Shown here piece by piece: positions 1 through 47,567 of a stretch of DNA of 64,000 nucleotides (positions are counted from its first letter, which is position 1; every line of letters starts with the position of its first letter). The notes beneath the pieces are model-generated. The model had not been told where the DNA came from, made no database searches, and saw only the letters and a program-made list of their open reading frames with translations. Made by a program: the position numbers and the translations under genes. Location of the stretch: NCBI GenBank assembly GCA_000002445.1, contig AE017150.2:160001-224000 (forward strand), in the 5' to 3' direction. This DNA is from Trypanosoma brucei. Its lineage: Eukaryota.

Positions 1-2
1 TC

Positions 3-5140: not shown

Positions 5141-5160
5141 TATATATATATATATATATA
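5141..5160. repeat. (TA)10 microsatellite
   Basis: A perfect tatatatatatatatatata run. Confidence 0.95.
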
Positions 5161-7774: not shown

Positions 7775-8340
7775 ATTCTGGGAGAAAAGCGTCTGGGGGG
7801 ACGTGAAGCAAGAGTTGATAATGTTTTCAGTTTATATGGCTCCGTATGCAATGCAAAGTGAAGTCACATTATAATGGACAACGAAACTCAACTGCTGTGG
7901 AGGATGGTTGTTGATGGAACGCGTAGTGGCAATGTAATGTGGAAGGATGAAGAACTTAATGTTGTCCCTGAAATTGAGGAAGCTGTTGAGAAGAAACCAG
8001 AACGCAGGGAAGAAGTTGAAGCAATGGTTCTAACATCTCAAATGGGGTGATAATAAGCCAAGTTTGCCGGGGTGAGTAACAAAAACATATTCATCCATAG
8101 AGAAGAGCTCCGCGTATGGAATGTTGTAAGGAATGGAATTGAATTATGGCGTACACAGCGTGCTTTACCGGAATGTCTTTATTTTCCACGATCATACGCT
8201 GTCATTGTTAACCATGGGATTGGAAAATCTCAGAATTTGGGCTCTTTTATCCTCTACAAGTTATTGCATTGTGATGCGGAAGAGTTGCCTATTGTTGCGT
8301 ATTTCTGCGGCATGGCAGTGTTAATATTTGAAACCAACTG
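7775..8340 (+). pseudogene. RHS (retrotransposon hot spot protein) fragment on the plus strand. It is truncated, with internal stop codons and a frameshift.
   Basis: The translation (GEKRLGGREARVDNVFSLYGSVCNAK*SHIIMDNETQLLWRMVVDG..MWKDEELNVVPEIEEAVEKKPER..IHREELRVWNVVRNGIELWRTQR..NHGIGKSQNLGSFILYKLLHCDAEELPIVAYF) aligns to residues about 40-230 of the intact minus-strand RHS at 19639-21663. It contains in-frame stops and a frame change near 8050-8075. Confidence 0.7.
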
Positions 8341-11192: not shown

Positions 11193-14100
11193 GTAACACG
11201 GTTAAATTATTGGGTCGCATCCGGACCGTATTGCATCATGACAAATATGATGTTACCATTTAAAAAATAAGTAGCAATAGTAGTAGGGAGAAAGCTATTG
11301 TTTTTTCTCACTCCTGCTGCCGCGTACATCATGCGTGATACAACAGTTTTCATTTATTCTATAGTAGATTTTTTCACATAGCAAGGGATACTCGGAATTG
11401 TTGTATAACTTTCGTTGTCCCAGCAATACTGTCTGCTTTTCATGGTTAAACTAAAACTCCAATGAAATCACATTGTTGTGTCATCTTTTGTGAGTCACCA
11501 ATGATGGTTGTGCCCCACATTTCTTCATGCTGGTAACTATTTTGTTTCCACGACATTTAACCACGTCATGTGCCTCACACTAATAAATATGTTGCAGATC
11601 CATGTTTGAGTCCTCAATCTTTCAGGGGTCGCCTGCTGCAGCCTCACGACATCGGCGTCTTCTGAAAAGACCCTTGTGATGGTGTGTGAAACTCCAGGAT
11701 TCTCCTTTATTAACTGATGGGGAGTCGATTCAAATTCACTAATTCCTCATTTTTGCTAACGTATCGGAACCCCACCCGAATATTCTCAGGCAACTTCACT
11801 TGGGAGGGAAATGACTTTAGATCAAACACTGCCACCGACTGGTCATGGAGAGTAATTATCAACTGGGAAAAGTGACACAATGGGACATATGCCTCATAAT
11901 CATCCCTGCTCTTTTTAGCCTTTGGTCATGCAATAAATCAACACCTTCTTCCAATTCTGTTTTTCCTCCATCACAAAGAATGGCGCACAACTCATCCTGT
12001 CATATGTCTCTCTGAAACTGGGCCAATGATACGCGATTGCTTCATTATTTGGGACTTCTTTTTTTACAATGTGCAATTCAGATTCCTTTTTTGATACTTT
12101 CTCTTTCCACATCATCTGTGCTATTCTTAATGCTCCAACCCTCATCAAATCGCTTACTCGCTGCTTGCATCATCCTCTGTCAAATCCACGGAAGGAAAAT
12201 CATTCCCACATTTATTTCCTATTGGAGAGGTGAAGTATTTTCTTTTCCTCCTCTTCCCGTGAGGTCACCTTTGTTTTCCCCTTGTGAGTGTCAAGGAATG
12301 CTGTGCAATCGATAATTTGGGAAGATATTCCCCGTTATAAGTCCCGGCTTCCCTCACACTGGGGCCGCACATTCCTTCCAATTATATCTTACATCAAAAA
12401 CATTAAAAGAACCGACTTGCTTACGGAAGCTGTCACACATCTGAGATACCACACTGTGCCTCGTGGAAGTTCCATTGTGTAGATGTGCTTTCCAAATTCT
12501 ATTAATAATATGTTGTCAATGTCGTGTTCAATTGCAACTACTGCCGCTGCGCGTGTCAGCAGTGCTCTTCTCTTTATGGAATGTTCTATCATTACGTATG
12601 GTCTTTTCAGTATGGTGTCATTTTCCCCTTTGTGGTAATGGCTATGAACTTCTTCCCCTTTCCTCCCGAGGTTCCTCCCTATGACTTTTTTCACACTGGC
12701 AATGCTCTTTTCCCAGTTGATAATTACGCATCGTGTGAGTATGTGGGTATCGCTTTTGAATTTCTTTAGAAGGTTCCCTCCCAAAAAAAAATCCACTGTT
12801 GAGGCTTTCTTTTCGTGTCAGTGTGGCACAACATTTTTCTCTTTTTTTGGGAGCTGTGTAATTTCTTTTTGCCATCGCATGGCTGGATGCAATTCATTCC
12901 ATTGATATTGCAACTGGATACCACTCTGGACGGAACTTCCTGCAAGATATTATCGAATCCCCATTACAACATGTGTTGTGTTTGTTTGATGGGTTTACCT
13001 GTTACCGTACTGTAAAGACGGACCCAAAAACAACATCCGCGTCGGTTTGTCCAATAGAGATGATGGAAGAGTTCTCCTGTACTGAAATGGCAATGGTCTC
13101 TGCGAGTCGTAAACTTACAACAACAAATAAAAGTGCAGTTGCATCCTATGCTGGAATGCGGTAATGATTTTCCGCCAATGCATAAAAACACCGCATGATG
13201 AATTCCCTGTTGCTCACATGTTTTAGTCCTCAGCTACATTCACTTTGCTATTCTATTGGCTCCTGAAACCAATGTCATGATGTACGGACAGCTTTTTGTG
13301 GGAACTGCAATAAAAATAATAATCATAATTATAATAACTCCTTTCACCAATGAGTTTACTATTGGTTGTAAAAGTGCTCTTGGTGCCACTCCATTTTTCT
13401 TTTCTTGAGTCCCCAGCTGCTGAGGGGCTGTTGTATTTTTTTTTAAAGAGTGACGCACCGTTTTATTCCCCACCCCTTTCAGGTGACTTCCTCCTGCACA
13501 GTTTTTACTTTCCCATCGTAGAATGTTTTTCAAGGTGTTTCCTTTGTGAAGCTTTGGTTATGCTATAATTAAAGACCACTCAACTCCCTCCTTCCGGGAA
13601 CTGTTGTTGCATTTATTTCCCTTTAGTTGCTGCAAATTTGTTTATTTGACAAGTTGTAGTGCGATACTTCACTTGACCATATGTGTAACATCGTGTCTCG
13701 TTGCTTTATAAAAATTCAAAAAGAACACATCAGGTGATATTCTTCTGCTCTTACTTCGTCCATTCACATCTCTTCCCGCCAGTTCGGAAACTCCCACTCA
13801 AACTCACCACTCTGTGAAGATTTGTAGTTTCCGTTAGCGATGGACGTACTGAAGTGGACATGTTTGGCACTTCAAAACTAAGTTTTTTAAACTTACACCT
13901 TCCTTCTTGCATACAGCTTCAGTGCGAGAGTAAAGGAATAGTTGAGTATCATGAGAAAACATAAGCCCAAAACATTCTCAACTCAAGCTTTCAATAAAAG
14001 CAAACACATTAAGATGGTTTAGTGAACACATGCAGTATAATCCCTAGCAAAGGTATTATTCACACCCAATAAACAACTCAAACAAATAACACCAGCATAC

Positions 14101-14884
14101 ATATCGCAGACACATAAGTTGCACCTTCACAAACAAATGAAAGCTGCTGTGGCTCATCATGTGTAAAATATTATGAGCACAAAAACATAAATGTCCTTGA
14201 CCTTCCATAAATGTATAACACAATATTTCTTGCATTGTCATCGGGAAAATATTTTTTTTATATTGTTATATATATTCATCCAATAGTCAAGAGTGAGCTC
14301 TGGCCTTGTAGAACTGTAAATGCGTGCATGTTCTGTTATTATTGTTTCCCATTGCAAAATGAAGATACCTGCAGATGTGGAGAAACGTCTCCATAAATGC
14401 TTATGATGCACCAAATAATTCTCTCGTAAAGAAAGGAGAGAACAAATGCTCAGCATACGTGTCGCTATTTGTATCTTTAAATTAAGGTTCTCTTGAATGG
14501 AGTAAAGAAAAAACAAAGAAAAGGCAAGAAGTATATGATGTAATTGGTGAGGCATAATGAAATGACCCAACAAGAGGGAAAGGAAGTTACATGCCTTCAC
14601 TACAGTCATACAAATAAAGCCAGACCCTTCACACTCGTTTTACAATGTTCTGTCGTATCGCTCTGCATAAACAAATAATACTAATAGAAAAGGGAAATGT
14701 AAGAAGAAAGTAAAAAAGTATCAAATAGTTCGAGGATTATCGACACTCAGCTACGTGAAGTGATACGTATCGCAAATGTGTGTTTGAAATGCTCACCATC
14801 CTAATGAACTTACTCGTATGTTACTTAACCCTGGGAAATATTTCTCTGTGCGCTCAAGTTACCTGACAACTCTCCTTCCGCACC

Positions 14885-17800
14885 CTATGCATTGTTACCA
14901 CCTCTATTGTTAACTCCGTTGTTATTGTTACCTTTTACTTGCAATTCAACGTATAGTGCAGTAATGTGGTTACTAAGAGAGACCGCGAACTGACGCACTT
15001 CCTGTTCACAAAACCTTTCCTCAACCTTATTATTTTGTCCTCCGTCTTCGATTGTCCCCTCACAACATTGTGGCTTTGTAATTTTTTCGCTGTCAACCCT
15101 TTGAACATAGATTATTTCCCATACCATCCCGCGTGAAAAATTGTCCCAGCGTCTAAAGTAACTTTGCAAACACCTTTTCATCTTAAATAACCCACCGGTG
15201 CTGCAAGGATGACTACCGGAAATTGTGTACTGCAGTCCCACAAAAGTCTTCGGATTCTCAACAAAAAAGAACGCATCAACAACCGGGAAACTCCTTGATT
15301 GCGGCTTGTACAATTTCATATATTGAATTTCAGCTCCAGCTACAATTGGAACATCCTCAGGAACCACAATCAAAGGATTCGTGAGTCTTGGACCTTGCAG
15401 CACCTGCAGCACACTTTGTTGGATTTGATCCCCAGCAAATGAAAGGCCCTGTAACTCCCTTGCCAACTCAGTTAGTGTATTCTCATGTGACAATGCTTCA
15501 ATGCCACTCTTCTCAAACAGATGACCAACAATAGCGCAGTTAGACAGCAGAGCAGATATTGCAGCATATTTATTCAGTAACCAAGGCCTCAGAAAGTCTA
15601 AAATAACTTGCCCCGTGTAAGATGAAAGCGGTGTGCAGAGATACGAATCACACAGAAGATTCCCTTTCTTCACTCGAACAACCCTCACTAACCTGTGTGA
15701 TGCTTTGCGTGTTTGCCAGGTAGCTGCGTTTTGGAAAATTTTTGCGTAGCTTTCCTTCTTTACATCACTCATTTCGTTAATGGCTTCCTCGATTAGATCA
15801 CACTGCCTGGTGAACGACGCCGAATCAACAATGTGACGAAGCAGTGGGCCAACGATAGGAATGCGATCTTGAATTTCTTGCCATTCACTTTCAATTTTCT
15901 CCTTCGCATCTGAAGGATTCCAACCGTAAGCAGGAGCAATTTTCCCCCACCTCGATATGTGTATGACTTCCAAATCCTTCAATGTATCACAGTTAATGTA
16001 AAAATGTAGGGCTTTGTTTTGCTTGGACCATCCATGGAATTGTCTAACGTTTGGAGAGCTCAAGGCAATACCAGCGAAATCACCAGGTGGTTTCGTCGGA
16101 GCAGGATGATTCTTGTCCACGTCAAATATAACGTATCCCTTAATATTCTCTGCGCCACATGAATCTCTGACTATTTGGCCAATAAGCGTTGAGGCATCAT
16201 CATAATTACTGTAAAACGTAACATATCCTGCTCGATCGCCTTTGGGTTTACGAAACACATACGCCTTACCACTCACAACGTACATGATAATCTAAAGCTG
16301 ACTCGATTCATAATGCAGTAGTTTGTATAACAGTATTATTTTTTTTGGAATTTTCTTCGTGCCTTCGTGAGAGTTTCTCCCAACTGGCGGGGCCATCAGC
16401 CATCACCGTAGAGCCCTGAGATGCTATCGGTCTGGCGACTGTGGCAGAGTCTCCCTTTTTCATTCATCCTAACACACCCTCTATAATTTTTGTTGTATTT
16501 CCGCATATGAACGGAATACAGCAGATGGGGCGAGAAGCCCCCCTCACCCCGGACTCTCCAAAAGATGTCAATTAGCAATCCTTTTGTTTTGATTTTTGTT
16601 ATTCGTTTATTATTCTCTCCCCCTCTTTCTGTTTCTGTTGCTTGTTGATTGCATACCCCCTCTGTCTCTAAGGGTGTCTGGACTATTCCTGCGTCCTGTG
16701 CTTTTCCTGCTAGCTCCACACTCGGCAATAAGGGGGGAAGTTGCAGAAGGGAGAGTGGGTTGTATGACTGTTACCTTAGGTGAGGACTTCACCTGCGGCC
16801 GGCTCCGTTCAACCGCAATGAGAAATTGCGCCAGCATTTAAGAGAAACATACATGCTGCACACACTCACCTTCTACCGCAAACCTGACACGTAACTCCTT
16901 CAAACCTGGACAGCTCATCAAGTGCAGCGACGTTTCTTCGCAGTCGCCGCGTTGGCTGGTAACAGCGCGCTCTACCTTCATACCGTTCATCTTCTTTTGA
17001 TGGAGGGTGAGGCCAGTTTTGCTAGCACACTGCCTTCCGCATGTCGGGCACACCAACATGGATGTGTTTTTATGCGGGGAATCAGTGGCACACAATTTTG
17101 TGCTTTTGCTGCATTTAAGCTCGACTCCCTCACCTTTGTGGAAAGCCTTACAGTGTCGGATGAGGGAGTCCCTGCAACTGAGCACTTTTTGGCACACACC
17201 ACACTGCACCCCGCCCTTCCCCGGGACGTCAACGTTTTCCTCACGGGCACGCTTACGAGGGAATTGCACCAACACCACGGTACCGTCCTCCGTCACTATG
17301 CTTTTATGTTTGAATTTCTTGTGTAGTGACAGGGAAGAACGTGTACCGAAGCTCGCCTCGCACAGGTCACATTGAAACGGCAGCTTCCGTGTATCCTGAG
17401 AGGCTGGCGCTGCTGGGGCTTTACCATCTCCTTGCACTGAGTCCTCGTTCTCTCGCCCCCTTTTCACGCGGCAACTGCCGCTGCCTATGCCATGTATTGT
17501 TCTAAGGTGGTGTAGTAGTCTGCCTGGCACTGCGAATTTGGAGGCACAGATGGTACAATGAAGCACCTGCGGTCTCATCGGGACTCGTGTGCTCGATGGT
17601 AGGGGAACGATCGCCACCACTGGAGGGGGCTCCGGGGGGATATCCACTGCAGGTGTTGCATCGCCGTATTTGATCCTCCGGAGGGCATCAGCTCGCACAA
17701 AGCCATGTTTGTTTACCATATGCGTTACAGCACTCGAGCGGCATTGGTATGTGGCATCACATTCCGTACATTTGGTCGGTTCGGAGGTTCTCTGAACAGT

Positions 17801-18560
17801 GCGTGTCGCAACAGTTGGGACTGTTTGTATTGTTGGTCCTATCGCTGCATGTTGCGGGTTACACCATCGGCACTGTGGAGGCACACTCGGGTTGATCTTC
17901 CGCACCCTCTTGAATTGCATACTGCGGAATACTGAAAGAGTTATATGGCCAACCCTTCTGCGAGGTGAGCACAGCAATCTCTAAATTACCGTGACGAGGC
18001 AGTGGGTCGCACAAGTCAAAAGGCGTGTGACTGACATTCACCTCCTCTTCTGTCCACAACTCGGGTTTGCCGTCACAATTACCCACTACCTTCATGCCAA
18101 GAGGTAAATCATTGTGACCCGACTCCACATAACCCCATGTCGCATTGTATATGGAATCATATACTCCTTTCAGTTCTGCACCACCAGCTGTTTGGTCAGC
18201 TCGTTCCCTTGCCTCTTTGGCAGTATCCAATGCCGCATCCAGCATTGCTCTCGCCCTGGGACCAACAAATTCCCTTATTTGCGCTTTTGCCATCTCCTCC
18301 CATTGCTGCATGTCTTAAATTCTATTACGAGGCAGATCAATAACTGCCCTTGGTAATTGAAACTCATCAAGCCGCTGTATCCTGTATTTCTTCAAGAACA
18401 TTAGCATTAATATATTTTCCCGGATTCTGAACAAACAAAAACATGGCCACATTCTCTGTTTTATACGTGTTTGAGAAGTATTGATTCAAAATTTCATGCA
18501 GTTTCATTTCATCCAAGCTCGCATAATCTTCCAGCAGCACATCCTCAATAGAACTGTTAA
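14885..18560 (-). pseudogene. RHS pseudogene interrupted by an ingi 3' fragment. It is a composite of a C-terminal part (14885-16336), the ingi fragment (16339-about 17895) and an N-terminal part (about 17895-18560).
   Basis: The C-part is a 466-aa in-frame RHS C-terminal region (MYVVSGKAYVF...NRGGNNA). Upstream of it, the codons LILLYKLLHYESSQL abut the ingi tail. The N-part (ORF 17859-18311 plus frameshifted upstream sequence to about 18560) matches the RHS N-terminal region (KAQIREFVGP...GVYDSIYNATWGYVESGHNDLPLGMKVV...LEIAVLTSQKGWPYNSF). It is lost roughly 180 bp short of the GIGKS motif. Confidence 0.75.
16339..17895 (-). mobile_element. ingi non-LTR retroposon, 3' fragment of about 1.6 kb. 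It comprises the C-terminal C2H2 zinc-finger part of the ingi ORF, the 3' UTR and an A8 tail. The 5' part is absent.
   Basis: The 3' terminal sequence (ggaattttcttcgtgccttcgtgagagtttc...gatgctatcggtctggcgactgtggcagagtctccc) is the same as the 3' halves of the two RIME copies, and is followed by a T8 run on the plus strand (16339-16346). The minus-strand ORF 16838-17977 contains at least five C2H2 fingers (CTICASKF..HHLRTIH, CDLCEASF..HKKFKH, CGVCQKVL..HCKAFH, CPTCGRQC..HQKKMNG, CTECDATY..HMVNKH). The 5' boundary is approximate, within about 50 bp. Confidence 0.7.
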
Positions 18561-19638
18561 TTGATCAAGTTGGCCCTTTTTCGCCTCCACGCAGTCAATT
18601 CAAAAAATATATTGCCGCATGCAACCTATTACTATGGAAACGCCTTATTGAATTCCACACTTCTGAAAACTTGCCCCCTGATTCTTCACAAGCTTGCGAT
18701 AAAAGCATAAACAAAAATAGAATCAGAAACAGAGACAGAGACAGTTTACACTGTAGAAAAGGACACCACAGTGAGTCACTCATTCTAGGAAGATAATCAC
18801 AAAAGCAAACACCCTCAAAAAGACAGCTCAGCGCCATAAAGCAGAACCTACTTACTACTAATAAGGAGTTGTGCCCCTTCCCTGCCAGTAAAGACACAAC
18901 ATTCCCCAACAAACACAGTGGAAGATCACAAGACTTATGACCCCTCCATACTAACCTAAACAAGACAGCGTGAATCACAATTGCATGCAATGCGCTAAGA
19001 ACCCAAAACGGTTCCGCACATTTGCCTCTGAGGATCCCTACTCAATCGCACCCCTACGCGGGAATCAATATTCTGCCTGTCACAAAATAACACAGCGGAC
19101 AGCAGAAGGAAAGGGGGAAAATAAAGAAACCCATCACAACACATAAGGATTTTAATGGGAACTTAAAGGAAACCTTCTAGATGAGAATGCTAACACCCAT
19201 ACCACAACAGTGCTCACAATCCTCTTGTATATCAGTGTTTAATTAGTTTTTCACAAAATGATTTGATAATCGTAACGATTCAAGGAATAAAAAAATGTAA
19301 ATGATAAGACACGACGCAACAAGCTGCCACATTGCCATTAATGGATGTATGTAATACCATTGTTACTATCCATTTCATTGTGACAACACATGCAAAATAC
19401 AATCGATACCACGGATTTCGTACGCCTTCCGTCGTGCGGTGAATCGCAGAGTGGATGTAAACAGTTGCGAAAGGATTACACCAACGCAACTGCAAGTTCG
19501 TTATGCTGCCAGGAACCTGTCCAGGATATATGATGAGTGAACTCCATTACCCAGACAAAAAATGTGACGCCTCCTCTTGCCCTTTCATTCGTTCTTCACA
19601 GTGTTTACCTCGTTGTTGGCTTGCCTGAGGTTCGTCAA

Positions 19639-21663
19639 TTACCTTCGGCCCACAGCAGCCACCGCAAGCATTTTGGTAACTATGTTATCCTCATACTGCA
19701 CATGGTACTGCTGCACATTGTTCTTCCAGAATCCCTCCACAAACTGGTGACTGCGGTGCTTTGCCTTACCCTGCGTAATTTCACACTTCTGCTCAGACCT
19801 CATCGCTGTGGATTCGAAGTGCTGAACGTAAATGATTTCCCAGTGAAACATCTCAGTAATTTCCTTCAACTGTTCAACGGTAGCCTCATTCTGGTGACCT
19901 CCCCCCTCCGCACTTGGAAAGAGGGATTGTAACAAATGAATGAATTCGTCGGTTGCTGTGTCATGGCTGCTGGCAACAGTAAACTGCAACAACACAATAG
20001 TTTTCTTCCCTATGGTTCCTGAAGCCTGTGCAGCCTGCTTTTCATCAACAATAAAGAATGCATCCGCTACGGGGTAGTTGGGAATGCATGGCACATATAA
20101 TTCCACCGGAGCCCCCTTCGACTCAGCCCAGTTGATGTCACCTGACACTGTGTTTGGTCGACAAGCATTGAGGAGGTCATCCCTTACGTGTTGCAAAATG
20201 CTTTTGCGTGTCCTCGTGCGCCTGGCCCTTTCATTTGCTGGAAGTTTCGTTATTAGACTTACGAAGCAAGTTAACACTCTGGGGGAACACAAATATTTAA
20301 TTGCATTCTTCTCAAAATAATGCCCGATGACAGATGCGTCCCGCGTCATACCAGACACCAGTGCCCACTCCTCAGCAATGCCGGAAAACACTACATTCAA
20401 AATTCTTTTCTTTATAGATTCAGAGTGAGGTACGCATATGTATATCTCACTATTGTTTCTCCCACAGGCACGAACAATCTTCACGAGTTTGTGAGATGCG
20501 TCACTTTCTCTCCATCCGCCTTTGTTACCCACCACGCCAATATAGAGTTCACGTCGCTCATGGGATTTGATGGAATTTATTTCATTGTCTATGTCGTCCT
20601 CACGCGTGGCATGCTTTGCTTCATCGAACACATAACGAAGTGAAGGTCCAACATGCTCCACACGGTTCTCATACATGTTCCACTTTTCCCTCAACTCAAC
20701 AGGCGTGGCTTGAGGAAAAAGCTTGGGTCCCACACGTGAGAAGAAAGCCCGCATTTCACTCATTTCCCAGCAGTTAACAACAATACGTGCACATCTTTCC
20801 CTCTGCTGGAACCAGCTGTCAAAATTTCTTTCATTATGTGAACTGATCAAAATGCTTCCCCATTTTGGAGCCACATCTGCCGGTGGCTGCTCACCTTTGT
20901 TGACGAAGTCATAAATAATATAACCACGTGTATTAGATGATATATTCTTCATAAACGTTATAGCCGCTTCTTTACTGTACTCCCTAACTCTGCCAACGCC
21001 ACCACCACCTGATTTCTCAAATATATATGCGGCTACACCACGGAAGTACGCAACAACAGGTAACTCTTCCGCATCATAATGCAGTAACTTGTAGAGGATA
21101 AAAGAACCAAAATTCTGAGATTTTCCAATCCCCGGGTTACCAATGGCAAGGTATGATCGTGGAAAATAAAGACATCTTGGCATAACACGTTGTGTACGCC
21201 ATAATTCAATTCCACTCCTTACAACATTCCATACACGGAGCTCTTCTCTGCGAATGAATATGTCACTGTTACTTCCCCGGGCAAAGCCTGTATATGGCCA
21301 ACCCATTTCTGAGGTAAGAACCAACAGCTCAACTCCTTTAGTGCGTTCCGGCTTCTGTTCAAGAGCTTCCTCAATTTCAGGCACGACATTAACTTCCTCA
21401 TCCTTCCACATCAAACCCTCATTGGGCATTCCATCAACCAAGCTCATTCCCAATGTTTGAGTTCCATCGTCGATAATAATATGACTCAATTTCGCATCAT
21501 AAATGGTATCGTATAATTTCTCTTCGAGAGACTTGCCCTCTCCGGTTTCTGATGGGTTCTCGTTTTCTCGGCCGGCTTGTCTCTTCATCGGGCGGTACGC
21601 ACCATTCAACCATCCATTTAAAACATTCCGAGTATCTCCCACACTACCGCCGTTCTGATTCAT
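19639..21663 (-). CDS. RHS: Retrotransposon hot spot protein (RHS), intact 674-aa ORF. N-terminal type is MNQNGG and C-terminal type ends ...VAAVGRR.
   Basis: It is a full-length ORF with the GNPGIGKSQNFGSF P-loop followed by ILYKLLHYDAEELPVVAYF. It is about 95% identical to the 675-aa paralogue at 45540-47567. An upstream U-rich tract with AG on the transcribed strand is consistent with a trans-splice acceptor. Confidence 0.85.
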   Translation of the reverse strand: MNQNGGSVGDTRNVLNGWLNGAYRPMKRQAGRENENPSETGEGKSLEEKLYDTIYDAKLSHIIIDDGTQTLGMSLVDGMPNEGLMWKDEEVNVVPEIEEALEQKPERTKGVELLVLTSEMGWPYTGFARGSNSDIFIRREELRVWNVVRSGIELWRTQRVMPRCLYFPRSYLAIGNPGIGKSQNFGSFILYKLLHYDAEELPVVAYFRGVAAYIFEKSGGGGVGRVREYSKEAAITFMKNISSNTRGYIIYDFVNKGEQPPADVAPKWGSILISSHNERNFDSWFQQRERCARIVVNCWEMSEMRAFFSRVGPKLFPQATPVELREKWNMYENRVEHVGPSLRYVFDEAKHATREDDIDNEINSIKSHERRELYIGVVGNKGGWRESDASHKLVKIVRACGRNNSEIYICVPHSESIKKRILNVVFSGIAEEWALVSGMTRDASVIGHYFEKNAIKYLCSPRVLTCFVSLITKLPANERARRTRTRKSILQHVRDDLLNACRPNTVSGDINWAESKGAPVELYVPCIPNYPVADAFFIVDEKQAAQASGTIGKKTIVLLQFTVASSHDTATDEFIHLLQSLFPSAEGGGHQNEATVEQLKEITEMFHWEIIYVQHFESTAMRSEQKCEITQGKAKHRSHQFVEGFWKNNVQQYHVQYEDNIVTKMLAVAAVGRR

Positions 21664-37049: not shown

Positions 37050-37061
37050 AATGAAGCAAAA
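37050..37061. repeat. RIME target-site duplication, left copy (AATGAAGCAAAA)
   Basis: It is an identical 12-mer to 37590-37601, and the two copies immediately flank the element. Confidence 0.9.
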
Positions 37062-37298
37062 TTTTTTTTAGAATTTTCTTCGTGCCTTCGTGAGAGTTTC
37101 CCCCCACTGGCGCGGCCATCAGCCATCACCGTAGAGCCCTGAGATGCTATCGGTCTGGCGACTGTGGCAGAGTCTCCCTTTTTTATTCATCCTAACACAC
37201 CCTCTACAATTTTTGTTGTATTTCCGCATATGAACGGAATACAGCAGATGGGGCGAGAAGCCTCCCACCCCGGACTCTCCAAAGGATGCCAATTAGCA

Positions 37299-37336
<38 letters not shown>

Positions 37337-37589
37337 CGGAGTTCCACATCACCGGACAGCAGCATCTTAGTGCGGATGATACTGCTGATGGCACGCTGGC
37401 ACGTGCCCAGGGACCGACAAATGAAAAACGGTGTCCCAGCAAGACGCTGCTGATCCCTGTGCTGTATGATGCCGTAGCCGGAGCACAGCAGTGTTCCCCA
37501 TGAAAGGAACGCTGCTGGCTCTTGGCTTCCCCCGATGATACGGGGTACTGGACCCTGGCACCACGTTGAGGTGGCCGGCATCGCCAGGG
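37062..37589 (-). mobile_element. RIME (the ingi-derived short non-LTR retroposon), a complete copy with an A8 tail and an expanded internal A34 tract
   Basis: The 5' end on the minus strand is CCCTGGCGATGCCGGCCACCTCAACGTGGTGCCAGGGTCCAGTACCCCGTATCATCGGGGGAAGCCAAGAGCCAGCAGCG..., which is the ingi/RIME 5' signature. The 3' half is identical to the ingi 3' end at 16347-16580. It terminates in T8 on the plus strand (37062-37069). Confidence 0.85.
37303..37336. repeat. T34 homopolymer (A34 on the element strand) internal to the RIME
   Basis: It is an uninterrupted run of 34 T. The equivalent position in the second RIME copy (about 43267-43273) has only T7. Confidence 0.95.
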
Positions 37590-37601
37590 AATGAAGCAAA
37601 A
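37590..37601. repeat. RIME target-site duplication, right copy (AATGAAGCAAAA)
   Basis: It is identical to 37050-37061. Confidence 0.9.
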
Positions 37602-38472
37602 ATGATCCAACACCGTATGATTTACCAATACCAGGTGTACCAATAACAATATGTATCGGTGAATCCACCACTGCGTCATTCAGCCACCATGTTTTCAGAT
37701 CCTTTTGGATTTTATACCACACGCGCATAATTTCACGACGGATATATACATGCTGAAATGCTGCTTTGTGCCCCGTAGTGTAATCCAATGCAAACCTGTT
37801 GTATGGCCAACCTTCCTCCGAAGTGAGAACAAAAATCTCCAAACCATTGGGTCTCTCCTCAATCTCTGCATCAACATTCGCAGGAAGAGGAGTTACATCC
37901 ACCTCCGCTTCGGTCCATATGCGCCGTGGCCTTCCATTGAATACTTTCATTCCAAGTGGCTCTGTATGATAACCCGACATCACATAACTCCATTTCGCAT
38001 TATATATGGATTCATACACTCCTCTCAGTTCGACAGCACCACCAGCTGTTTGGGCAGCTCGTTCCCCCACTTCTTTGGCAATGCGCAGTGCCCTGTCCAA
38101 CTTTGTCGCTGCCACGGGACCAACAAATTCCCTTATTTCCCCTCTTCCCTTCTCCTCCCACTGACTGAGGGTGCTAATCCCATTACGAGGCAGATAAATA
38201 ACTGCCCTCAGTAATTGAAACTCATCAAGCCCCCGTATAATTCCTTGAAGCCTTGCATCCAAAATATAATCCTCCGGGCTCTGAACAAAAATGGGCATCC
38301 TAACATTTTCTGCTTCAGCCACCGCAAAAGTCCCGCCAACGAACTTCTGAATAAAGTCGTTCACTGTCATTTTACGCAAACCCGCATAATCTTCCAGCAG
38401 CACATCCCTCACCTTACTATCCATTGTCCAGTTGGGCCCCCCCTCATTTCTCTGCCGTATCTGTGGAGGCTG

Positions 38473-38496
38473 AGCAGCAGCAGCAGCAGCAGCAGC
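38473..38496 (-). repeat. (AGC)8 / (GCT)8 trinucleotide repeat encoding Ala8 in the RHS N-terminus
   Basis: It is translated as PPAPPAAAAAAAAQPP. The paralogue at about 62350 has only two Ala at this position. Confidence 0.9.
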
Positions 38497-38616
38497 AGGA
38501 GGAGCAGGCGGTACATTTTCATCCCGTGGCCTCCTCATGGGCCCTTCAATATTACCTGCCACTTGTTGGTTTGCATTATTTCCTTGTGGAGCTGCGGGAC
38601 TATTTGCTCTTGACAT

Positions 38617-41605: not shown

Positions 41606-44441
41606 TCAGTCAGCGGGGCCACCAGCAATAGCGTTTGGTTCATCCTGGGTGATCTCCTTAACAATATTCCCTTCCATCTTCACTTGAAACTGGTTGATTT
41701 TATTCCACAACTCTGTAGTATAATCGCCTCTGCCCCCAACTGGTTCGCACTTCTGCCTCACATCGATTGGCTTGCTGTCACTGTACTGTATGTAAATTAG
41801 CTCCCATTTCAAGTTTCTTGCGAGCTTATCCCATTCACGAAACAATTGTTTCATTGCCTTGATAAACTTATCTACCTTCGTTCGTGTCGTGTGATGCGTT
41901 GGTGCCACTGTCGGCTGGAGCAGAACAATTGTTGTTGCGGTGATCGCTCTTCCTTCTCTATCAACAGCTGGCTCAGTTACAAAGAAAAAGGCGTTCACAA
42001 CGGGGAAATTTCCCTGTACAGGTCGGTAAAGGCACCCAACCTCAATGTCTTGGCCTGTCGTTTCGGGGTTAAACTGACGAAGTGAAGTTGGAACACGTCC
42101 CACGGCATTACCACTTGCCAGAGCGGATACATTTGAATCCATTTCTTCTCCAACGCGAGGGAGATACCGCAGGTGCGTCACAATCGTCTGCACAACATTT
42201 CCCATCGTGAAGGCATATATGCCCACATTTTCAAATTCATCATTGGCCTGCTCTTCTTTCCCACGAAAAACCTTCCGAAGGTAATTGTCTCGCATACATG
42301 CTGTGTCCGCCCACACTCTCAATTTCTGCTCAATATAAACGGAAACAGCTCTGTTTCTGCATTCTTCTCATTCTCAGTTACAACCCGGACCAACTTAGCC
42401 AACCTGTATGTAGTCCCGTCCTCGCGCCATTCAACTCGACCATTCAGCACCTTCATGTAGTGTTCAGCATCGCCTCTACTGATTTCCTCCAGTGCCCCAT
42501 TTATTTCTCTAACATGGTCACAATAGGGTTTGTCACCTTCCAGTACGTGGCGGGGCAGTGGGCCCACCTTCTTAATCCATCCTAATATTTTCCCCCATTC
42601 GTTCTCAAGGTTTATGATGTGAGTTTCGGTGATTTTACTTGCCTCCAACTTTGACAGCCGCCTCCACGAAACCGCAGCCTTCAGTTCCACCTTTTCATAG
42701 CAATTGATGCAAAGGAACTCGTAACCCCGTGGTTCCTTCCACTCTCTGTAGTTATTTGGATCTGGAGATGTCAACACAATTACGGGCCACGCTCCCGGCA
42801 ATTTTGTCGGTATGGGTTCATCTCTCTCTTTCGAAAAGTCGTATATAATGTAACCAAGAAGCTTTTCATCAACGAAGGCCTTCACAGCATCCAATCCATC
42901 TACTTCCTCTTCATAGAATACAACCCTTCCCGGATGATCGTTTGTCGCCCTGAAGAAAATATATGCCTCGCCCTTCACAAAATAAGCGATATTCCGCAAC
43001 AGCTCCTAATCGTAATGCAGCAACCCTTGGAGCAGAAATTTTCTTCGTGCCTTCGTGAGAGTTTCTCCCCACTGGCGCGGCCATCAGCCATTACCGCAGA
43101 GCCCTTAGATGCTATCGGTCTGGCGACTGTGACAGAGTCTCCCTTTTTTATTCATCCTAACACACCCTCTATAATTTTTGTTGTAGCTCCGCAGTTGAAC
43201 GGAATACAGCAGATGGGGCGAGAAGCCTCCCACCCTGGGCTCTCCCAAAGATGTCAATTAGAAATCCTTTTTTTGGAGTTCCACATCACCGGACAGCAGC
43301 ATCTTAGTGCGGATGATACTGCTGATGGCACGCTGGCACGTGCCCAGGGACCGACAAATGAAAAACGGTGTCCCAGCAAGACGCTGCTGATCCCTGTGCT
43401 GTATGATGCCGTAGCCGGAGCACAGCAGTGTTCCCCATGAAAGGAACGCTGCTGGCTCTTGGCTTCCCCTGATGATACGGGGTACTGGACCCTGGCACCA
43501 CGTTAAGGCAGATTCATTCTTAGTGTAAGCTAAATACTCGCTGGCCGCGGGGATCGATTCCGGTACTATCTGCGACGACCAATCTACTTAACCACTAAAC
43601 CAGCGTAAGCCGAATATAATAGCCAGCACCAACTGATTTCCCAATACCTGCACTGCCGACGAGGACGCAAGGAATCTGTTTTTCGATCAGCCCTGACTCC
43701 AGCCACAAATCCAGCCTGTGCTTCACAAGATACCACACTCTCATTACCTCTCGACGAATGTACACATCCCGGTCAAACACGTAGTCTCCTGGTTCCTCCG
43801 CATCCTCTTGAATTGCATGTTCCGGAATGCTGAAAGAGTTATATGGCCAACTCTTCTGCGAGGTGAGCACAGCAATCTCTAAATTACCGTGACGAGGCAG
43901 TGGGTCGCACAAGTCATAAGGCGTGTGACTGACATTCACCTCCTCTTCTGTCCACAACTCGGGCTCGCCGTCACTATTACCCACCACCTTCATGCCAAGA
44001 GGTAAATCATTGTGACCCGACTCTACATAACCCCACGTCGCATTATATATAGAATCATATACTCCTTCAAGGTTTACAGCACCAGCAGCTGTTTGGTCAG
44101 CTTGCTTTTCCTTGCTTCTTTGGAAATGCGCAGTGCACTGTCCAACTTCGCCGCTGCAGTGAGGCAACAAGTTCCCTTATTTGCGCTGTTGCCCTCTCTT
44201 CCCAGTGCTGCATGTCTTCAATTCTATTACTAGGAGGGTAAATAACTGCCCTCGGTAATTGAAACTCGTCAGTATCCTGTATATCCTCAAGAATCTCGGC
44301 ATCAACATTAATATATCTTCTGAGATTATTAACAAACACATCCATGGACACATTCTCTGTGTTATACGTGTTTGAGGAAAACTGATTCAAAAAGTCATGC
44401 AGTTTCATTTCACCCAAACTCGCATAATCTTCCAGCAGCAC
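41606..44441 (-). pseudogene. RHS pseudogene interrupted by a 5'-truncated RIME. It is a composite of a C-part (41606-43024, one frameshift near 42320, C-terminus ...AGGPAD), the RIME, a filler and an N-part (43595-44441).
   Basis: The C-part ORFs 42319-42999 and 41606-42322 align to RHS from LLQGLLHYD/AYFVKGEAYIF to the C-terminus. The N-part ORFs 43595-44170 and 44097-44441 align to the RHS N-terminus up to GIGKSVGAG. Confidence 0.8.
43025..43508 (-). mobile_element. RIME copy 2. It has no poly(A) tail, its 5' end is truncated by about 18 nt, and its internal A-tract is 7 nt.
   Basis: It is identical to the RIME at 37062-37589 apart from its ends. It is followed on the 5' side by about 85-110 bp of unassignable sequence (43509-about 43615) before RHS resumes. 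Confidence 0.8.
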
Positions 44442-45539
44442 ATTTTCAATAGAACTGTTAATTGATCAAGTTGGCCCTCTTCCTCCTCACGCAGTCTCTT
44501 CGAAAAATACAATGGCGCATGCAACCTATTACTATGGAAACGCCTTATTGAATTCCACACTTCTGAAAGCTTGCCCCCTGATTCCTCACAAGCTTGCGAT
44601 AAAAGCATAAACAAAAATAGAATCAGAAACAGAGACAGAGACAGTTTACACTGTAGAAAAGGACACCACAGTGAGTCACTCATTCTAGGAAGATAATCAC
44701 AAAAGCAAACACCCTCAAAAAGACAGCTCAGAGCCATAAAGCAGAACCTACTTACTACTAATAAGGAGTTGTGCCCCTTCCCTGCCAGTAAAGACACAAC
44801 ATTCCCCAACAAACACAGTGGAAGATCACAAGACTTATGACCCCTCCATACTAACCTAAACAAGACAGCGTGAATCACAATTGCATGCAATGCGCTAAGA
44901 ACTCGAAACGGTTCCGCACATTTGCCTCTGAGGATCCCTACTCAATCGCACCCCTACGCGGGAATCAATATTCTGCCTGTCACAAAATAACACAGCGGAC
45001 GGCAGAAGGAAAGGGGGAAAATAAAGAAAGCCATCACAACACATAAGGATTTTAATGGGAACTTACAGGAAACCTTCTAGATGAGAATGCTAACACCCAT
45101 ACAACAACAGTGCTCACAATCCTCTTGTATATCAGTGTTTAATTAGTGTTTCACAAAATGATTTGATAATCGTAACGATTCAAGGAATAAAAAAAATGTA
45201 AATGATAAGACACGACGCAACAAGCTGCCACATTGCCATTAATGGATGTATGTAATACCATTGTTACTATCCATTTCATTGTGACAACACACGCAAAATA
45301 CAATCGATACCACGGATTTCGTACGCCTTCCGTCGTGCGGTGAATCGCAGAGTGGATGTAAACAGTTGTGAAAGGATTACACCAACGCAACTGTAAGTTC
45401 GTTATGCTGCCAGAAGCCTGTCTAGGATATACGATGAGTGAACTTCATTACTCCAACACAAAATGTGACGCCTCCTCTTGCCCTTTCATTCGTTCTTCAC
45501 AGTGCTTACTTCATTGTTGGCTTGCCCGAGGTTCGCCAA

Positions 45540-47567
45540 TTACCTTCGGCCCGCAGCAGCCACCGCAAGCATTTTGATAACTATGTTATCCTCATACTGC
45601 ACATGGTACTGCTGCACATTGTTCTTCCAGAATCCCTCCACAAACTGGTGACTGCGGTGCTTTGCCTTACCCTGTGTAATTTCACACTTCTGCTCAGACC
45701 TCATCGCTGTGGATTCGAAGTGCTGAACGTAAATGATTTCCCAGTGAAACATCTCAGTAATTTCCTTCAACTGCTCAACGGTAGCCTCATTCTGGTGACC
45801 ACCCCCCTCCGCACTTGGCAAGAGGGATTGTAGCAAATGAATGAATTCGTCGGTTTTTGTGTCATGTCTGCTGGCAACAGTAAACTGCAACAACACAATA
45901 GTTTTCTTTCCTGTGGTTCCTGAAGCCTGTGCAGCCTGCTCGTCATCAACAATAAAGAATGCATCCGCTACGGGGTAGTTGGGAACGCATGGCACATATA
46001 ATTCCACCGGAGCCCCCTCCGACTCAGCCCAGTTGATGTCACCTGGCACTGTTTTTGGTCGACGGACTTTGAGGAGGCCATCCCTTACGTGTTGCAAAAT
46101 GCTTTTGCGTGTCCTCATGCGTCTGGCCCTTTCATTTGCTGGAAGTTTCGTTATTAGATTTACGAAGCAAGTTAACACTCTGGGGGAACACAAATATTTA
46201 ATTGCATTCTCCTCAAAATAAAGCCCGATGGCAGATGCATTCCGCATCATACCAGTTGTCAGTGCCCACTCCTCAGCAATGCCGGAAAACACTACATTCA
46301 AAATTCTTTTCTTTATAGATTCAGAATGCGCCACGCAGACATACGTGTCAAAGGAGTTTCCTTCTCGAGCTTTGATACGAACGATCTTCACGAGCTTATG
46401 TGATGCATCATTGTCCCTCCATTCCCCACAGTTGTCCAGTACCTTAGTATATATTCCGTACTTGTTACCTGCTACGATACTCCCCAATTCCCCGTCCACT
46501 GCAGTAAGCTCCTGTCCATACATTACTTCGTCAAACACATAACGAAGTGAAGGTCCGACACGCTCCACACGGTTCTCATACATGTTCCACTTTTCCCTCA
46601 ACTCAACATGCGTGGCTTGAGGAAAAAGCTTGGGTCCCATACGTGAGAAGAAAGCCCGCATTTCACTCATTTCCCAGCAGTTAACAACAATAAACGCGCC
46701 TTTACGTTGCTTTTGCCAGCTGTCAAAATTTCTCAAATTAGGTGAACTGATCAAAATGCTTCCCCATTTTGGAGCCACATCTGCCGGTGGCTGCTCGCCT
46801 TTTTTGACAAAGTCATAAATAACATAACCACGTGTATTAGATGATATAACCTTCATAAACGTTATAGCCGCTTCTTTACTGTACTCCCTAACTCTGCCAA
46901 CGCCACCACCACCTGATTTCTCAAATATATATGCGGCTACACCACGGAAGTACGCAACAACAGGTAACTCTTCCGCATCATAATGCAATAACTTGTAGAG
47001 GATAAAAGAACCCAAATTCTGAGATTTACCAATCCCAGGATTACCAATGGCAACGTATGATCGTGGTAAATAAGGACATCCCGGTATAACACGCTGGGCA
47101 CGCCATAATTCAATTCCACTCCTTACAAAATTCCATACACGGAGCTCTTCTCTGCGAATGAATATGTCACTGTTACTTCCCCGGGCAAAGTCTGTATATG
47201 GCCAACCCATTTCAGACGTAAGAACCAACAGCTCCACTCCTTTAGTGCGTTCCGGCTTCTGTTCAAGAGTTTCCTCAATTTCAGGCACGACATTAACTTC
47301 CTCATCCTTCCACATCAAACCCTCATTGGGCATTCCATCAACCATCCTCATTCCCAATGGTTGAGTTCCATCGTCGATAATAATATAACTCCATTTCGCA
47401 TTATAGGTGGAATCGTATAATTTCTCTTCGAGAGACTTGCCCTCTCCGGTTTCTGATGGGTTCTCGTTTTGTCGGCCGGCTTGTCTCTTCATTGGGCAGT
47501 ACGCACCATTCAACCATCCATTTAAAACATTCCGAGTATCTCCTACACTACCGCCGTTCTGATTCAT
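45540..47567 (-). CDS. RHS: Retrotransposon hot spot protein (RHS), intact 675-aa ORF. It is a paralogue of the RHS at 19639-21663.
   Basis: It is a full-length ORF with MNQNGG...GIGKSQNLGSFILYKLLHYDAEELPVVAYF...VAAAGRR. It is about 95% identical to copy 1, except for a divergent patch at about 46325-46545. Confidence 0.85.
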   Translation of the reverse strand: MNQNGGSVGDTRNVLNGWLNGAYCPMKRQAGRQNENPSETGEGKSLEEKLYDSTYNAKWSYIIIDDGTQPLGMRMVDGMPNEGLMWKDEEVNVVPEIEETLEQKPERTKGVELLVLTSEMGWPYTDFARGSNSDIFIRREELRVWNFVRSGIELWRAQRVIPGCPYLPRSYVAIGNPGIGKSQNLGSFILYKLLHYDAEELPVVAYFRGVAAYIFEKSGGGGVGRVREYSKEAAITFMKVISSNTRGYVIYDFVKKGEQPPADVAPKWGSILISSPNLRNFDSWQKQRKGAFIVVNCWEMSEMRAFFSRMGPKLFPQATHVELREKWNMYENRVERVGPSLRYVFDEVMYGQELTAVDGELGSIVAGNKYGIYTKVLDNCGEWRDNDASHKLVKIVRIKAREGNSFDTYVCVAHSESIKKRILNVVFSGIAEEWALTTGMMRNASAIGLYFEENAIKYLCSPRVLTCFVNLITKLPANERARRMRTRKSILQHVRDGLLKVRRPKTVPGDINWAESEGAPVELYVPCVPNYPVADAFFIVDDEQAAQASGTTGKKTIVLLQFTVASRHDTKTDEFIHLLQSLLPSAEGGGHQNEATVEQLKEITEMFHWEIIYVQHFESTAMRSEQKCEITQGKAKHRSHQFVEGFWKNNVQQYHVQYEDNIVIKMLAVAAAGRR

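What the first reader, a model, noticed from the sequence alone, without database searches (positions are those of the whole stretch)
43025..43620. An atypical RIME copy with no poly(A) tail, an 18-nt 5' truncation and an orphan filler of about 85-110 bp
The copy starts directly with aattttcttcgtgcc against RHS codons FLLQGL, without any A-run. It ends at ...cacgttaagg, short of the canonical CCCTGGCGATGCCGGCC terminus. It is followed by sequence (43509-about 43615) that matches neither RIME nor RHS and is rich in palindromic restriction-like motifs (CCGCGG, ATCGAT, CCGG). The absence of a poly(A) tail and TSD argues that this junction formed by recombination or repair, not target-primed reverse transcription. 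The filler could be a 5' transduction, template-switch product or captured fragment.
Basis: seen in the sequence. Interest (0 to 1): 0.55.

Follow-up and report, generated by a model that had tools for sequence, protein, structure and literature searches.

The report
Rearranged RIME retroposon in RHS2 pseudogene
This is a decayed, patched-up copy of the trypanosome RIME retroposon at the usual hot spot of an RHS2 pseudogene; the only unexplained part is a 112-base insert of unknown origin at its 5' end, which looks like a repair scar and not a new kind of element.

Summary
On the minus strand, window 43037-43508 is a RIME that lacks its first 18 nt and its poly(A) tail. A 112-nt orphan stretch (43509-43620) joins it to the RHS gene, and there is no 12-bp target-site duplication.

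The window is T. b. brucei TREU927 chromosome 2, and the host gene is an RHS2 pseudogene. Intact RHS2 genes are colinear across the insert; only 2 nt are missing.

The 3' junction lies at the canonical hot-spot position. The same tail-less junction, with the same private base changes, occurs on a full-length ingi in T. equiperdum. Two other RHS2 copies carry A10 at that site. The tail was therefore most likely lost secondarily, by a 13-nt deletion, and inherited. Its absence does not argue against target-primed reverse transcription.

The element is a mosaic of a consensus RIME body and an ingi-type 3' end.

The filler matches nothing I could search: RHS, full ingi, Pr77, Rfam, 105 kb of related loci, and bacterial, plasmid and phage collections. 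A weak tRNA-like signal (p about 0.01-0.02) is only a lead.

Best reading: an ordinary hot-spot insertion later remodelled by recombination and break repair. Its origin needs a BLAST against whole T. brucei genomes, which these tools cannot do. Interest is low.

The parts
41606..43036 (-). RHS2 pseudogene, part downstream of the hot spot (FLLQGLLHYD*ELLRNIAYF... to the stop). It has an in-frame TAG after HYD and a frameshift near 42320.
   Evidence: Its translation is 85% identical to TREU927 RHS2 P0017 and 80% to P0018. It is 95% identical in DNA to T. equiperdum L002, L003 and L005 and to T. b. gambiense L004.
43037..43508 (-). RIME retroposon copy, nt 19 to the last base before the tail. 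It has no poly(A) tail. 43037-43038 (TT) could belong to either RIME or RHS.
   Evidence: The 5' half is 98.8% identical to the RIME at 37 kb and the 3' half is 93.3% identical. The last ~165 nt share derived variants with the L002 ingi.
43033..43046 (-). Tail-less 3' junction, GAAGAAAATT|TCTGCTCC, at the canonical hot-spot position.
   Evidence: The junction is identical in T. equiperdum L002 at 9410-9430. L003 and L004 have A10 here.
43509..43620 (-). Orphan filler of 112 nt, 45.5% G+C, CpG observed/expected 1.58. It replaces the expected 12-bp duplication, 2 nt of RHS2 and RIME nt 1-18.
   Evidence: No match in any search.
43535..43610 (-). Weak tRNA-like fold inside the filler: ARAGORN calls tRNA-Thr(cgt) only when the threshold is lowered to 80%. 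This is a lead, not a call.
   Evidence: 8 of 400 shuffles and 7 of 587 natural 109-nt tiles give such a hit. There is no Rfam match.
43621..44560 (-). RHS2 pseudogene, part upstream of the hot spot. It ends in the P-loop GSAGIGKS plus VGAG. Codon 1 is changed (VWNSIRRF where the intact gene has MWNSIRRF) and the frame shifts near 44170-44400.
   Evidence: (89% amino-acid identity to P0018).
37050..37601 (-). Reference case in the same window: a canonical full-length RIME in another RHS pseudogene, with an A8 tail and a 12-bp duplication (AATGAAGCAAAA) on both sides.
   Evidence: The same insertion is seen in T. equiperdum L002 at 14009-14528.

Best explanation
An ingi or RIME element entered an RHS2 gene at the family's usual hot spot, five codons after the P-loop, by ordinary target-primed reverse transcription. 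The copy was then remodelled in three ways.

1. The short A-tail was lost by a roughly 13-nt deletion. A direct repeat, AAAATT, is formed by the element's end and by the tail plus the target TTT, so slippage or microhomology-mediated joining would give exactly GAAGAAAATTTCTG. This tail-less junction was then inherited by paralogous copies in several T. brucei subspecies.

2. The body was exchanged by recombination or gene conversion among RIME and ingi copies. This left a consensus RIME over nt ~60-310 and an ingi-type haplotype over the last ~165 nt.

3. At the 5' junction a break was repaired without homology. Thirty-two nt were lost (the 12-bp duplication, 2 nt of RHS2 and RIME nt 1-18) and 112 nt of foreign DNA were inserted. 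The insert was either captured as a fragment or copied from the flank of an ectopic donor before end joining.

The copy is dead. It lacks the 5' part of the Pr77 promoter/ribozyme, its tail, and an intact host reading frame.

Shown directly: the anatomy, the colinearity of RHS2 across the insert, the shared tail-less junction, the mosaic structure, and the orphan status of the filler. Inferred: the order of events and the repair mechanism.
For: - Source and host gene: the window is TREU927 chromosome 2, and the gene is RHS2 on both sides of the insert.
- Colinearity: intact RHS2 DNA is colinear across the insert with a 2-nt loss and no duplication.
- Hot spot: all eight elements compared sit at the same RHS position. 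The literature summary places the hot spot five codons after the ATP/GTP motif (PMC7563717), and the 12-bp duplication is a fixed feature of ingi/RIME (PMC3820030).
- Tail loss: the identical tail-less junction, plus the shared variants CAACTGCGGAGCTAC and CTAAGGGCTCTGCGGTA, occurs on a full-length ingi in T. equiperdum L002. A10 tails are present at the same RHS2 site in L003 and L004. Removing 13 nt from the L004 junction reproduces the window junction (sequence reading).
- Mosaic: the 5' half is 98.8% identical to the 37-kb RIME and the 3' half is 93.3% identical. The only two private changes in the 5' half lie in nt 19-61.
- Recombination is the norm here: only 2 of the 8 compared elements keep a duplication. 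L002, L003 and L004 have non-RHS 5' flanks, and the 16-kb copy joins an RHS2 N part to an RHS1-like C part.
- The filler is not RHS. Appending it to the RHS profile match gains 1.5 bits, and 12% of shuffles do as well, whereas the real downstream RHS piece adds 58 bits.
Against: - The source of the filler was not found, so capture or templated repair is inferred only from the junction anatomy.
- No microhomology can be scored without the donor sequence.
- There is no sign of local templated patches: exact matches of 8 nt or more to the surrounding 3 kb are not enriched.
- A break that removes just 32 nt around the 5' junction is a coincidence that an insertion-time event would explain more simply.
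- The ancestral A-tail of this particular lineage is inferred from paralogues, not observed.
Confidence: 0.5

Rival explanations
1. The 5' junction was made during retrotransposition. The reverse transcriptase stopped 18 nt short of the RIME RNA 5' end, perhaps at the folded Pr77 ribozyme. It then switched to a second RNA and copied about 112 nt. The cDNA was joined to a second-strand break at almost the same position as the first nick, which gives a 2-nt target deletion instead of a 12-bp duplication. The tail-less 3' end would reflect internal priming on UUCU just upstream of the tail.
For: The filler is in one piece, has coding-like or RNA-like composition (45.5% G+C against about 30% in the intergenic parts of the window), and sits exactly where extra nucleotides are added in other non-LTR elements. 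Both junctions map to within 2 nt of one target position, as expected for a single integration event. ARAGORN gives a weak tRNA-like signal in the same orientation as RIME.
Against: - No known RNA family matches the filler.
- No reading frame is open through the whole filler, so it is not an intact piece of coding sequence.
- The tRNA-like fold ends 26 nt before the junction, and its stems are poor.
- A T. equiperdum full-length ingi with a different 5' flank has the same tail-less 3' junction, and the window element is a mosaic. The two junctions therefore need not date from one event.
- Internal priming does not reproduce the junction base-for-base without an extra slip (sequence reasoning).
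Confidence: 0.25
2. The filler is the upstream flank of another RIME copy that is itself truncated at nt 19. The new strand was then end-joined to the RHS2 side. This is a specific version of the repair model.
For: The mosaic structure shows that the RIME body was copied from another element. Five-prime-truncated elements do exist in this genome, for example the ingi fragment at 16349-17904.
Against: No such donor was seen in 64 kb of window plus 105 kb of related loci. All five other 5' ends examined are complete.
Confidence: 0.12
3. The filler is a decayed tRNA or tRNA-like pol III element: a tRNA-RIME chimera, or a captured tRNA-like gene.
For: At 80% threshold ARAGORN finds a 76-nt cloverleaf (Thr, cgt) at 43610-43535 in RIME orientation. 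Such a hit occurs in 2% of shuffled fillers and 1.2% of natural 109-nt tiles. There is an A-box-like TGGTTTAGTGG at positions 9-19 and a B-box-like GAATCGATCCC at 51-61 (sequence reading).
Against: - There is no hit at default ARAGORN settings and none in Rfam.
- At that threshold the window has 27 such hits, and the filler is not among the nine best.
- U8, T54 and R37 are wrong, and three stems carry mismatches.
- The flanking RHS2 part is only a few percent diverged from RHS2a at the protein level. That is too little to have ruined a real tRNA.
- This was a post-hoc test among many hypotheses.
Confidence: 0.05
4. The filler is an assembly or cloning artefact in the reference sequence.
For: It is unique in everything searched, and no second genome carrying this exact copy could be retrieved.
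Against: There is no similarity to E. coli, plasmids or vectors, or phages. It is flanked on both sides by clean, in-register RHS2 and RIME sequence. A 112-nt internal insertion is not a usual artefact of finished clone-based sequencing (general knowledge).
Confidence: 0.03

Closest known systems
Canonical RIME/ingi insertion at the RHS hot spot (Bringaud et al. 2002, as summarised in PMC7563717; 12-bp duplication per PMC3820030)
   Same: It uses the same element, the same host gene family and the same insertion position five codons after the P-loop. It has the same internal RIME join of the two ingi ends.
   Different: It has no poly(A) tail, no 12-bp duplication and no first 18 nt, and it carries 112 extra nt at the 5' junction.
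Recombinant RHS pseudogenes, in which RIME/ingi copies serve as recombination substrates (literature summary in PMC7563717)
   Same: The element is a mosaic. Most neighbouring elements lack duplications or join unrelated flanks.
   Different: Here both RHS halves are RHS2 and colinear. Homologous exchange alone explains neither the truncation nor the filler.
Break repair with filler DNA or captured fragments; microhomology-mediated end joining in T. brucei
   Same: A small deletion plus a non-homologous insertion at a single junction, in an organism believed to lack classical end joining.
   Different: The donor of the insert is unknown, and microhomologies cannot be verified.
Chimeric retrocopies made by LINE reverse-transcriptase template switching (human U6/L1-type chimeras; my own knowledge)
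   Same: A 5'-truncated retroposon is preceded directly by unrelated sequence in one block.
   Different: Those chimeras keep the poly(A) tail and a duplication around the whole chimera, and the 5' partner is an identifiable RNA. None of this is seen here.
L1 insertions with target-site deletion or 5' extra nucleotides (my own knowledge)
   Same: There is a loss of target bases instead of a duplication, and extra nucleotides at the 5' junction.
   Different: Extra nucleotides in those cases are usually a few bases, not 112.

Membership tests
RIME (non-autonomous ingi-clade retroposon) | Body made of the first ~250 and last ~250 nt of ingi, joined at the standard point | tested here: met
   blastn against the 37-kb RIME gives 98.8% and 93.3% identity for the two halves. 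The mid-join GATGTGGAACTCCAAAAAAAGGATT is as in other RIMEs.
RIME (non-autonomous ingi-clade retroposon) | Complete Pr77 hallmark starting CCCTGGCG at the 5' end | tested here: not met
   The copy starts at nt 19, while five comparison copies are complete. It is a truncated copy of the family, not an intact member.
RIME (non-autonomous ingi-clade retroposon) | 3' poly(dA) stretch | tested here: not met
   GAAGAAAATT is followed directly by TCTGCTCC.
RIME (non-autonomous ingi-clade retroposon) | 12-bp target-site duplication | tested here: not met
   RHS2 is colinear across the insert with a 2-nt loss. The 12-bp rule is from PMC3820030.
RHS2 (retrotransposon hot spot protein subfamily 2) pseudogene | N-terminal RHS domain with a P-loop and an RHS2-type C-terminal region on either side of the hot spot | tested here: met
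   The N part is 89% identical to P0018, and the C part is 85% identical to P0017, whose cluster holds RHS2a AAL14353. The gene carries stops and frameshifts.
5' transduction | A complete element 5' end preceded by the flank of the source locus | tested here: not met
   The first 18 nt of the element are absent.
Template-switch chimera (U6/L1 type) | The 5' partner is an identifiable cellular RNA in sense orientation, ending at the junction | tested here: inconclusive
   There is no Rfam family and no open reading frame through the filler. The T. brucei transcriptome could not be searched.
Template-switch chimera (U6/L1 type) | A poly(A) tail and a duplication flank the whole chimera | tested here: not met
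tRNA gene or tRNA-derived element | A cloverleaf that passes standard detectors | tested here: not met
   ARAGORN at default settings finds none and Rfam finds none. The only hit is at 80% threshold, which is background level.
Tandem Pr77 signatures (SIDER2-like 5' end) | A second Pr77-like signature upstream of the first | tested here: not met
   Local and semi-global alignment of the filler to Pr77 is no better than shuffles (P of about 0.8).
Diverged RHS coding sequence | Continues the RHS profile after the P-loop | tested here: not met
   The HMM gain is 1.5 bits, and 12% of shuffles do as well. The control piece gains 58 bits. There is no DNA match to intact RHS2.

The most novel reading that the evidence does not exclude
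The 112-nt filler records a template switch by the ingi reverse transcriptase, from RIME RNA (stalled at the folded Pr77 ribozyme) onto a second cellular transcript, possibly a tRNA-like pol III RNA. That would be the first chimeric retrocopy described for the trypanosomatid ingi/L1Tc clade.
Probability: 0.12. Interest if true: 0.5.

Novelty: new member of a known kind. Interest (0 to 1): 0.2.

Why it matters
The finding matters little on its own. RHS pseudogenes carrying rearranged RIME/ingi copies are a described feature of T. brucei, and this copy is dead. Two modest points follow.

First, the tail-less junction is shared between a RIME in TREU927 and a full-length ingi in T. equiperdum. 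This is a clear example of RIME and ingi bodies being swapped on one inherited insertion site. It is also a warning that 'no tail, no duplication' does not by itself exclude target-primed reverse transcription.

Second, if the filler's source can be found, this junction is a natural record of how trypanosomes repair breaks inside repeats, or of reverse-transcriptase template switching.

Tried and rejected
**Searches for the filler's origin. All were negative.**
- blastn at word size 7 against the window.
- blastn against T. equiperdum and T. b. gambiense loci L001-L005, which include two full-length ingi and an intact RHS2.
- nhmmer with all filters off against all 170 kb; the best score was 2.4 bits, within the range of shuffles.
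- Rfam at a permissive threshold, on 1.1 kb and on 141 nt.
- E. coli genomes, plasmids and phages in 'distant' mode.
- Exact 24-26-mers in bacterial/archaeal genomes and JGI metagenomes. These collections are not expected to hold trypanosome DNA, so absence there says little.
- Full text of papers, for six 15-16-mers.
- phmmer of the filler-plus-RIME in-frame peptide against 1.84 billion proteins. The homologous hits start within a few residues of the RIME boundary; three weak or multi-stretch hits (P0044, P0050, P0051) begin further upstream, and the one whose sequence was read, P0050, shows no resemblance to the filler peptide.

**Hypotheses tested and rejected.**
- Diverged RHS coding sequence.
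- A second Pr77 signature.
- Local templated patches.
- Enrichment of palindromes.
- Unusual RNA or DNA folding: z-scores of 0.36 and 0.87.
- tRNA at standard thresholds.

**Attempts that failed for technical reasons.**
- TREU927 genes are not indexed for contig retrieval.
- The first protein search returned only one hit, although closer relatives exist (one search compared).
- The Bringaud 2002 paper is not held.
- I began a tRNA covariance model from phage T5 tRNAs. I dropped it because the MAFFT alignment was structurally poor and the result would not change the verdict.
Full report
**Source and context.** The window's two 674/675-aa ORFs (19639-21663 and 45540-47567, minus strand) are 100% identical to XP_951494.1 and XP_951495.1 of Trypanosoma brucei brucei TREU927. 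Both proteins lie on the 1,193,948-bp chromosome 2. The window is therefore part of the chromosome 2 RHS array, and nearly all its genes are on the minus strand. Everything below is read on the minus strand.

**Checking the observation.**
- A RIME copy occupies 43037-43508. Its 3' end, GGCACGAAGAAAATT, runs straight into TTT CTG CTC CAA GGG (F L L Q G) with no A-run.
- Its 5' homology stops at CCTtAACGTGG, which is RIME nt 19 onward. Five other RIME/ingi 5' ends, in the window and in related loci, all begin CCCTGGCGATGCCGGCCA.
- Between RIME nt 19 and the last RHS base (43621) lie 112 nt (43509-43620).
- A canonical RIME 6 kb away (37062-37589) shows the normal anatomy: a full 5' end, an A8 tail and a perfect 12-bp duplication, AATGAAGCAAAA. 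The 12-bp duplication is a fixed property of ingi/RIME (PMC3820030).
Two 6-bp palindromes in 112 nt is what shuffles give (P = 0.5).

**The host gene.**
- The flanks are the two halves of one RHS2 pseudogene. Intact relatives (P0017 from TREU927, and P0018; the P0017 cluster contains RHS2a AAL14353) read ...CVLVGTAGIGKSVGVGSFLLQRLLHYDSELL....
- The window reads ...CVLVGSAGIGKSVGAG | insert | FLLQGLLHYD*ELL....
- Against the DNA of an intact RHS2 gene from T. equiperdum (L005), window 43621 aligns to L005 10373 and window 43038 to L005 10376. The gene is therefore colinear across the insert. Two bases of the Ser codon are missing and nothing is duplicated.
- The position is the family's hot spot, five codons after the ATP/GTP motif (PMC7563717). 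All eight elements I compared sit there.

**The 3' junction.**
- T. equiperdum locus L002 carries a full-length ingi whose junction with an RHS2 C part is base-for-base the same tail-less junction, GAAGAAAATTTCTGCTCCAAGGGTTGCTGCATTACGAT.
- The last ~165 nt of that ingi share derived variants with the window's RIME (CAACTGCGGAGCTAC, CTAAGGGCTCTGCGGTA) that the six other copies lack.
- Two further RHS2 C parts, L003 (T. equiperdum, with an ingi) and L004 (T. b. gambiense chromosome 11, with a RIME), carry A10 at the same site.
- Removing 13 nt (CT, A10, T) from the L004 junction gives the window junction.
- If the ancestral target began TTT, as it does here, the element end and the tail-plus-target form a 6-nt direct repeat, AAAATT. 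Collapse of that repeat yields exactly the observed sequence. This step is inference.
- The tail-less state is therefore derived, inherited and present in paralogous copies. The flanks are 91-95% identical, which is below orthologue level.
- The 3' junction remains fully compatible with an original target-primed insertion.

**Mosaic body.**
- The 5' half is 98.8% identical to the 37-kb RIME and the 3' half is 93.3% identical.
- The only two private substitutions in the 5' half fall in nt 19-61.
- The last ~165 nt follow the L002 ingi haplotype, but the preceding ~60 nt do not. The body has been exchanged with other copies.
- Such exchange is typical here. Only two of the eight elements keep duplications, and these two appear to be the same insertion (same duplication sequence and same RHS flank).
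- L002, L003 and L004 have non-RHS 5' flanks.
- The element at 16349-17904 is the last 1,554 nt of an ingi. It joins an RHS2 N part, cut 175 nt before the hot spot, to an RHS1-like C part. T. equiperdum L001 has the same structure.

**The filler.**
- It is not RHS. Appended to the P-loop region it adds 1.5 bits to an RHS profile match, and 12% of shuffles do as well. The true downstream piece adds 58 bits.
- It has no DNA similarity to intact RHS2, to two full-length ingi, to the rest of the window or to 105 kb of related loci, even with nhmmer at full sensitivity.
- It is not a second Pr77 signature, not a known RNA family, and not from E. coli, a plasmid or a phage.
- It is not assembled from local patches and does not fold unusually well.
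- No reading frame is open throughout.
- Its composition is 45.5% G+C with CpG observed/expected of 1.58, against 0.66-0.78 nearby. This is unlike the window's ~30% G+C intergenic DNA.
- The one positive signal is weak. ARAGORN at 80% threshold draws a tRNA-Thr(cgt)-like cloverleaf at 43610-43535. That happens in 2% of shuffled fillers and 1.2% of natural tiles. However, the stems are poor and conserved bases are wrong. The window holds 27 such hits, with this one outside the best nine. The fold also ends 26 nt before the junction. I treat it as a lead only.

**Mechanism.** The best-supported reading (confidence about 0.5) has three parts: an ordinary hot-spot insertion, secondary loss of the tail, and exchange of the body by recombination. 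A non-homologous repair event at the 5' junction then replaced 32 nt with 112 nt of foreign DNA. The 32 nt were the duplication, 2 nt of RHS2 and RIME nt 1-18. A specific version is that synthesis ran from a 5'-truncated donor RIME into its flank before end joining.

The main rival (about 0.25) is an insertion-time event: reverse transcriptase stalled 18 nt from the RNA end, switched template, and the second-strand break fell almost opposite the first. Both fit the anatomy, and only the filler's source can separate them. A 5' transduction is unlikely, because the element's own 5' end is missing.

The truncation removes the start of the Pr77 region. That region acts as internal promoter and HDV-like ribozyme in this clade (PMC4035085). 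The copy could therefore not produce a proper transcript.

**Limits.** The tools hold no searchable T. brucei genome. TREU927 genes could not be retrieved as contigs. 'Orphan' therefore means orphan within about 170 kb of T. brucei-group RHS DNA plus non-trypanosome collections.

**Verdict.** This is a rearranged, dead member of a known kind, and its interest is low unless the filler turns out to be a template-switch product.

Noticed in passing
window 14885-19599 (minus strand); L001 8713-12116: A chimeric RHS pseudogene. An RHS2-type N part is cut 175 nt upstream of the hot spot (at about 17904) and joined to the last 1,554 nt of an ingi (16349-17904, with an A-tail). An RHS1-like C part follows (ORF 14885-16285, 70-76% identical to RHS1-type proteins). 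T. equiperdum has the same junction.
   Followed up: partly
window 37304-37336: The canonical RIME at 37 kb has its internal A-run (A6-7 in other copies, at the join of the two ingi halves) expanded to about 33 A. In the RHS-RIME read-through ORF 37204-38616 this reads as a run of lysines.
   Followed up: no
L002 4166-9420, L003 4119-9355, L004 9564-10055: Three elements attached to RHS2 C parts in T. equiperdum and T. b. gambiense have complete 5' ends. Their 5' flanks are not RHS: they are VSG-related or unrelated sequence. These copies are products of recombination between elements at different loci.
   Followed up: partly
window 43509-43620: CpG observed/expected in the filler is 1.58, against 0.66-0.78 in RIME, RHS2 and the whole window. 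There are nine CpGs in 112 nt.
   Followed up: no
window 1-9000: The only large plus-strand ORF (69-3038, 989 aa, leucine-rich-repeat-like) and a plus-strand RHS-like fragment (7775-8329) lie at the left end. GC skew changes sign near 9 kb, which suggests a strand-switch region bordering the minus-strand RHS array.
   Followed up: no
window 14.8-21.7 kb and 41.6-47.6 kb: A segmental duplication: each unit has an RHS5 gene (674/675 aa) followed by an RHS2-N pseudogene. 43794-45500 is 92% identical to 17896-19599. The two units differ in the retroelement and in the C part that follow.
   Followed up: partly
whole window: Rfam at gathering thresholds finds no family anywhere in the 64 kb. The Pr77 HDV-like ribozyme region of the RIME/ingi copies is not recognised by any Rfam model.
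   Followed up: no
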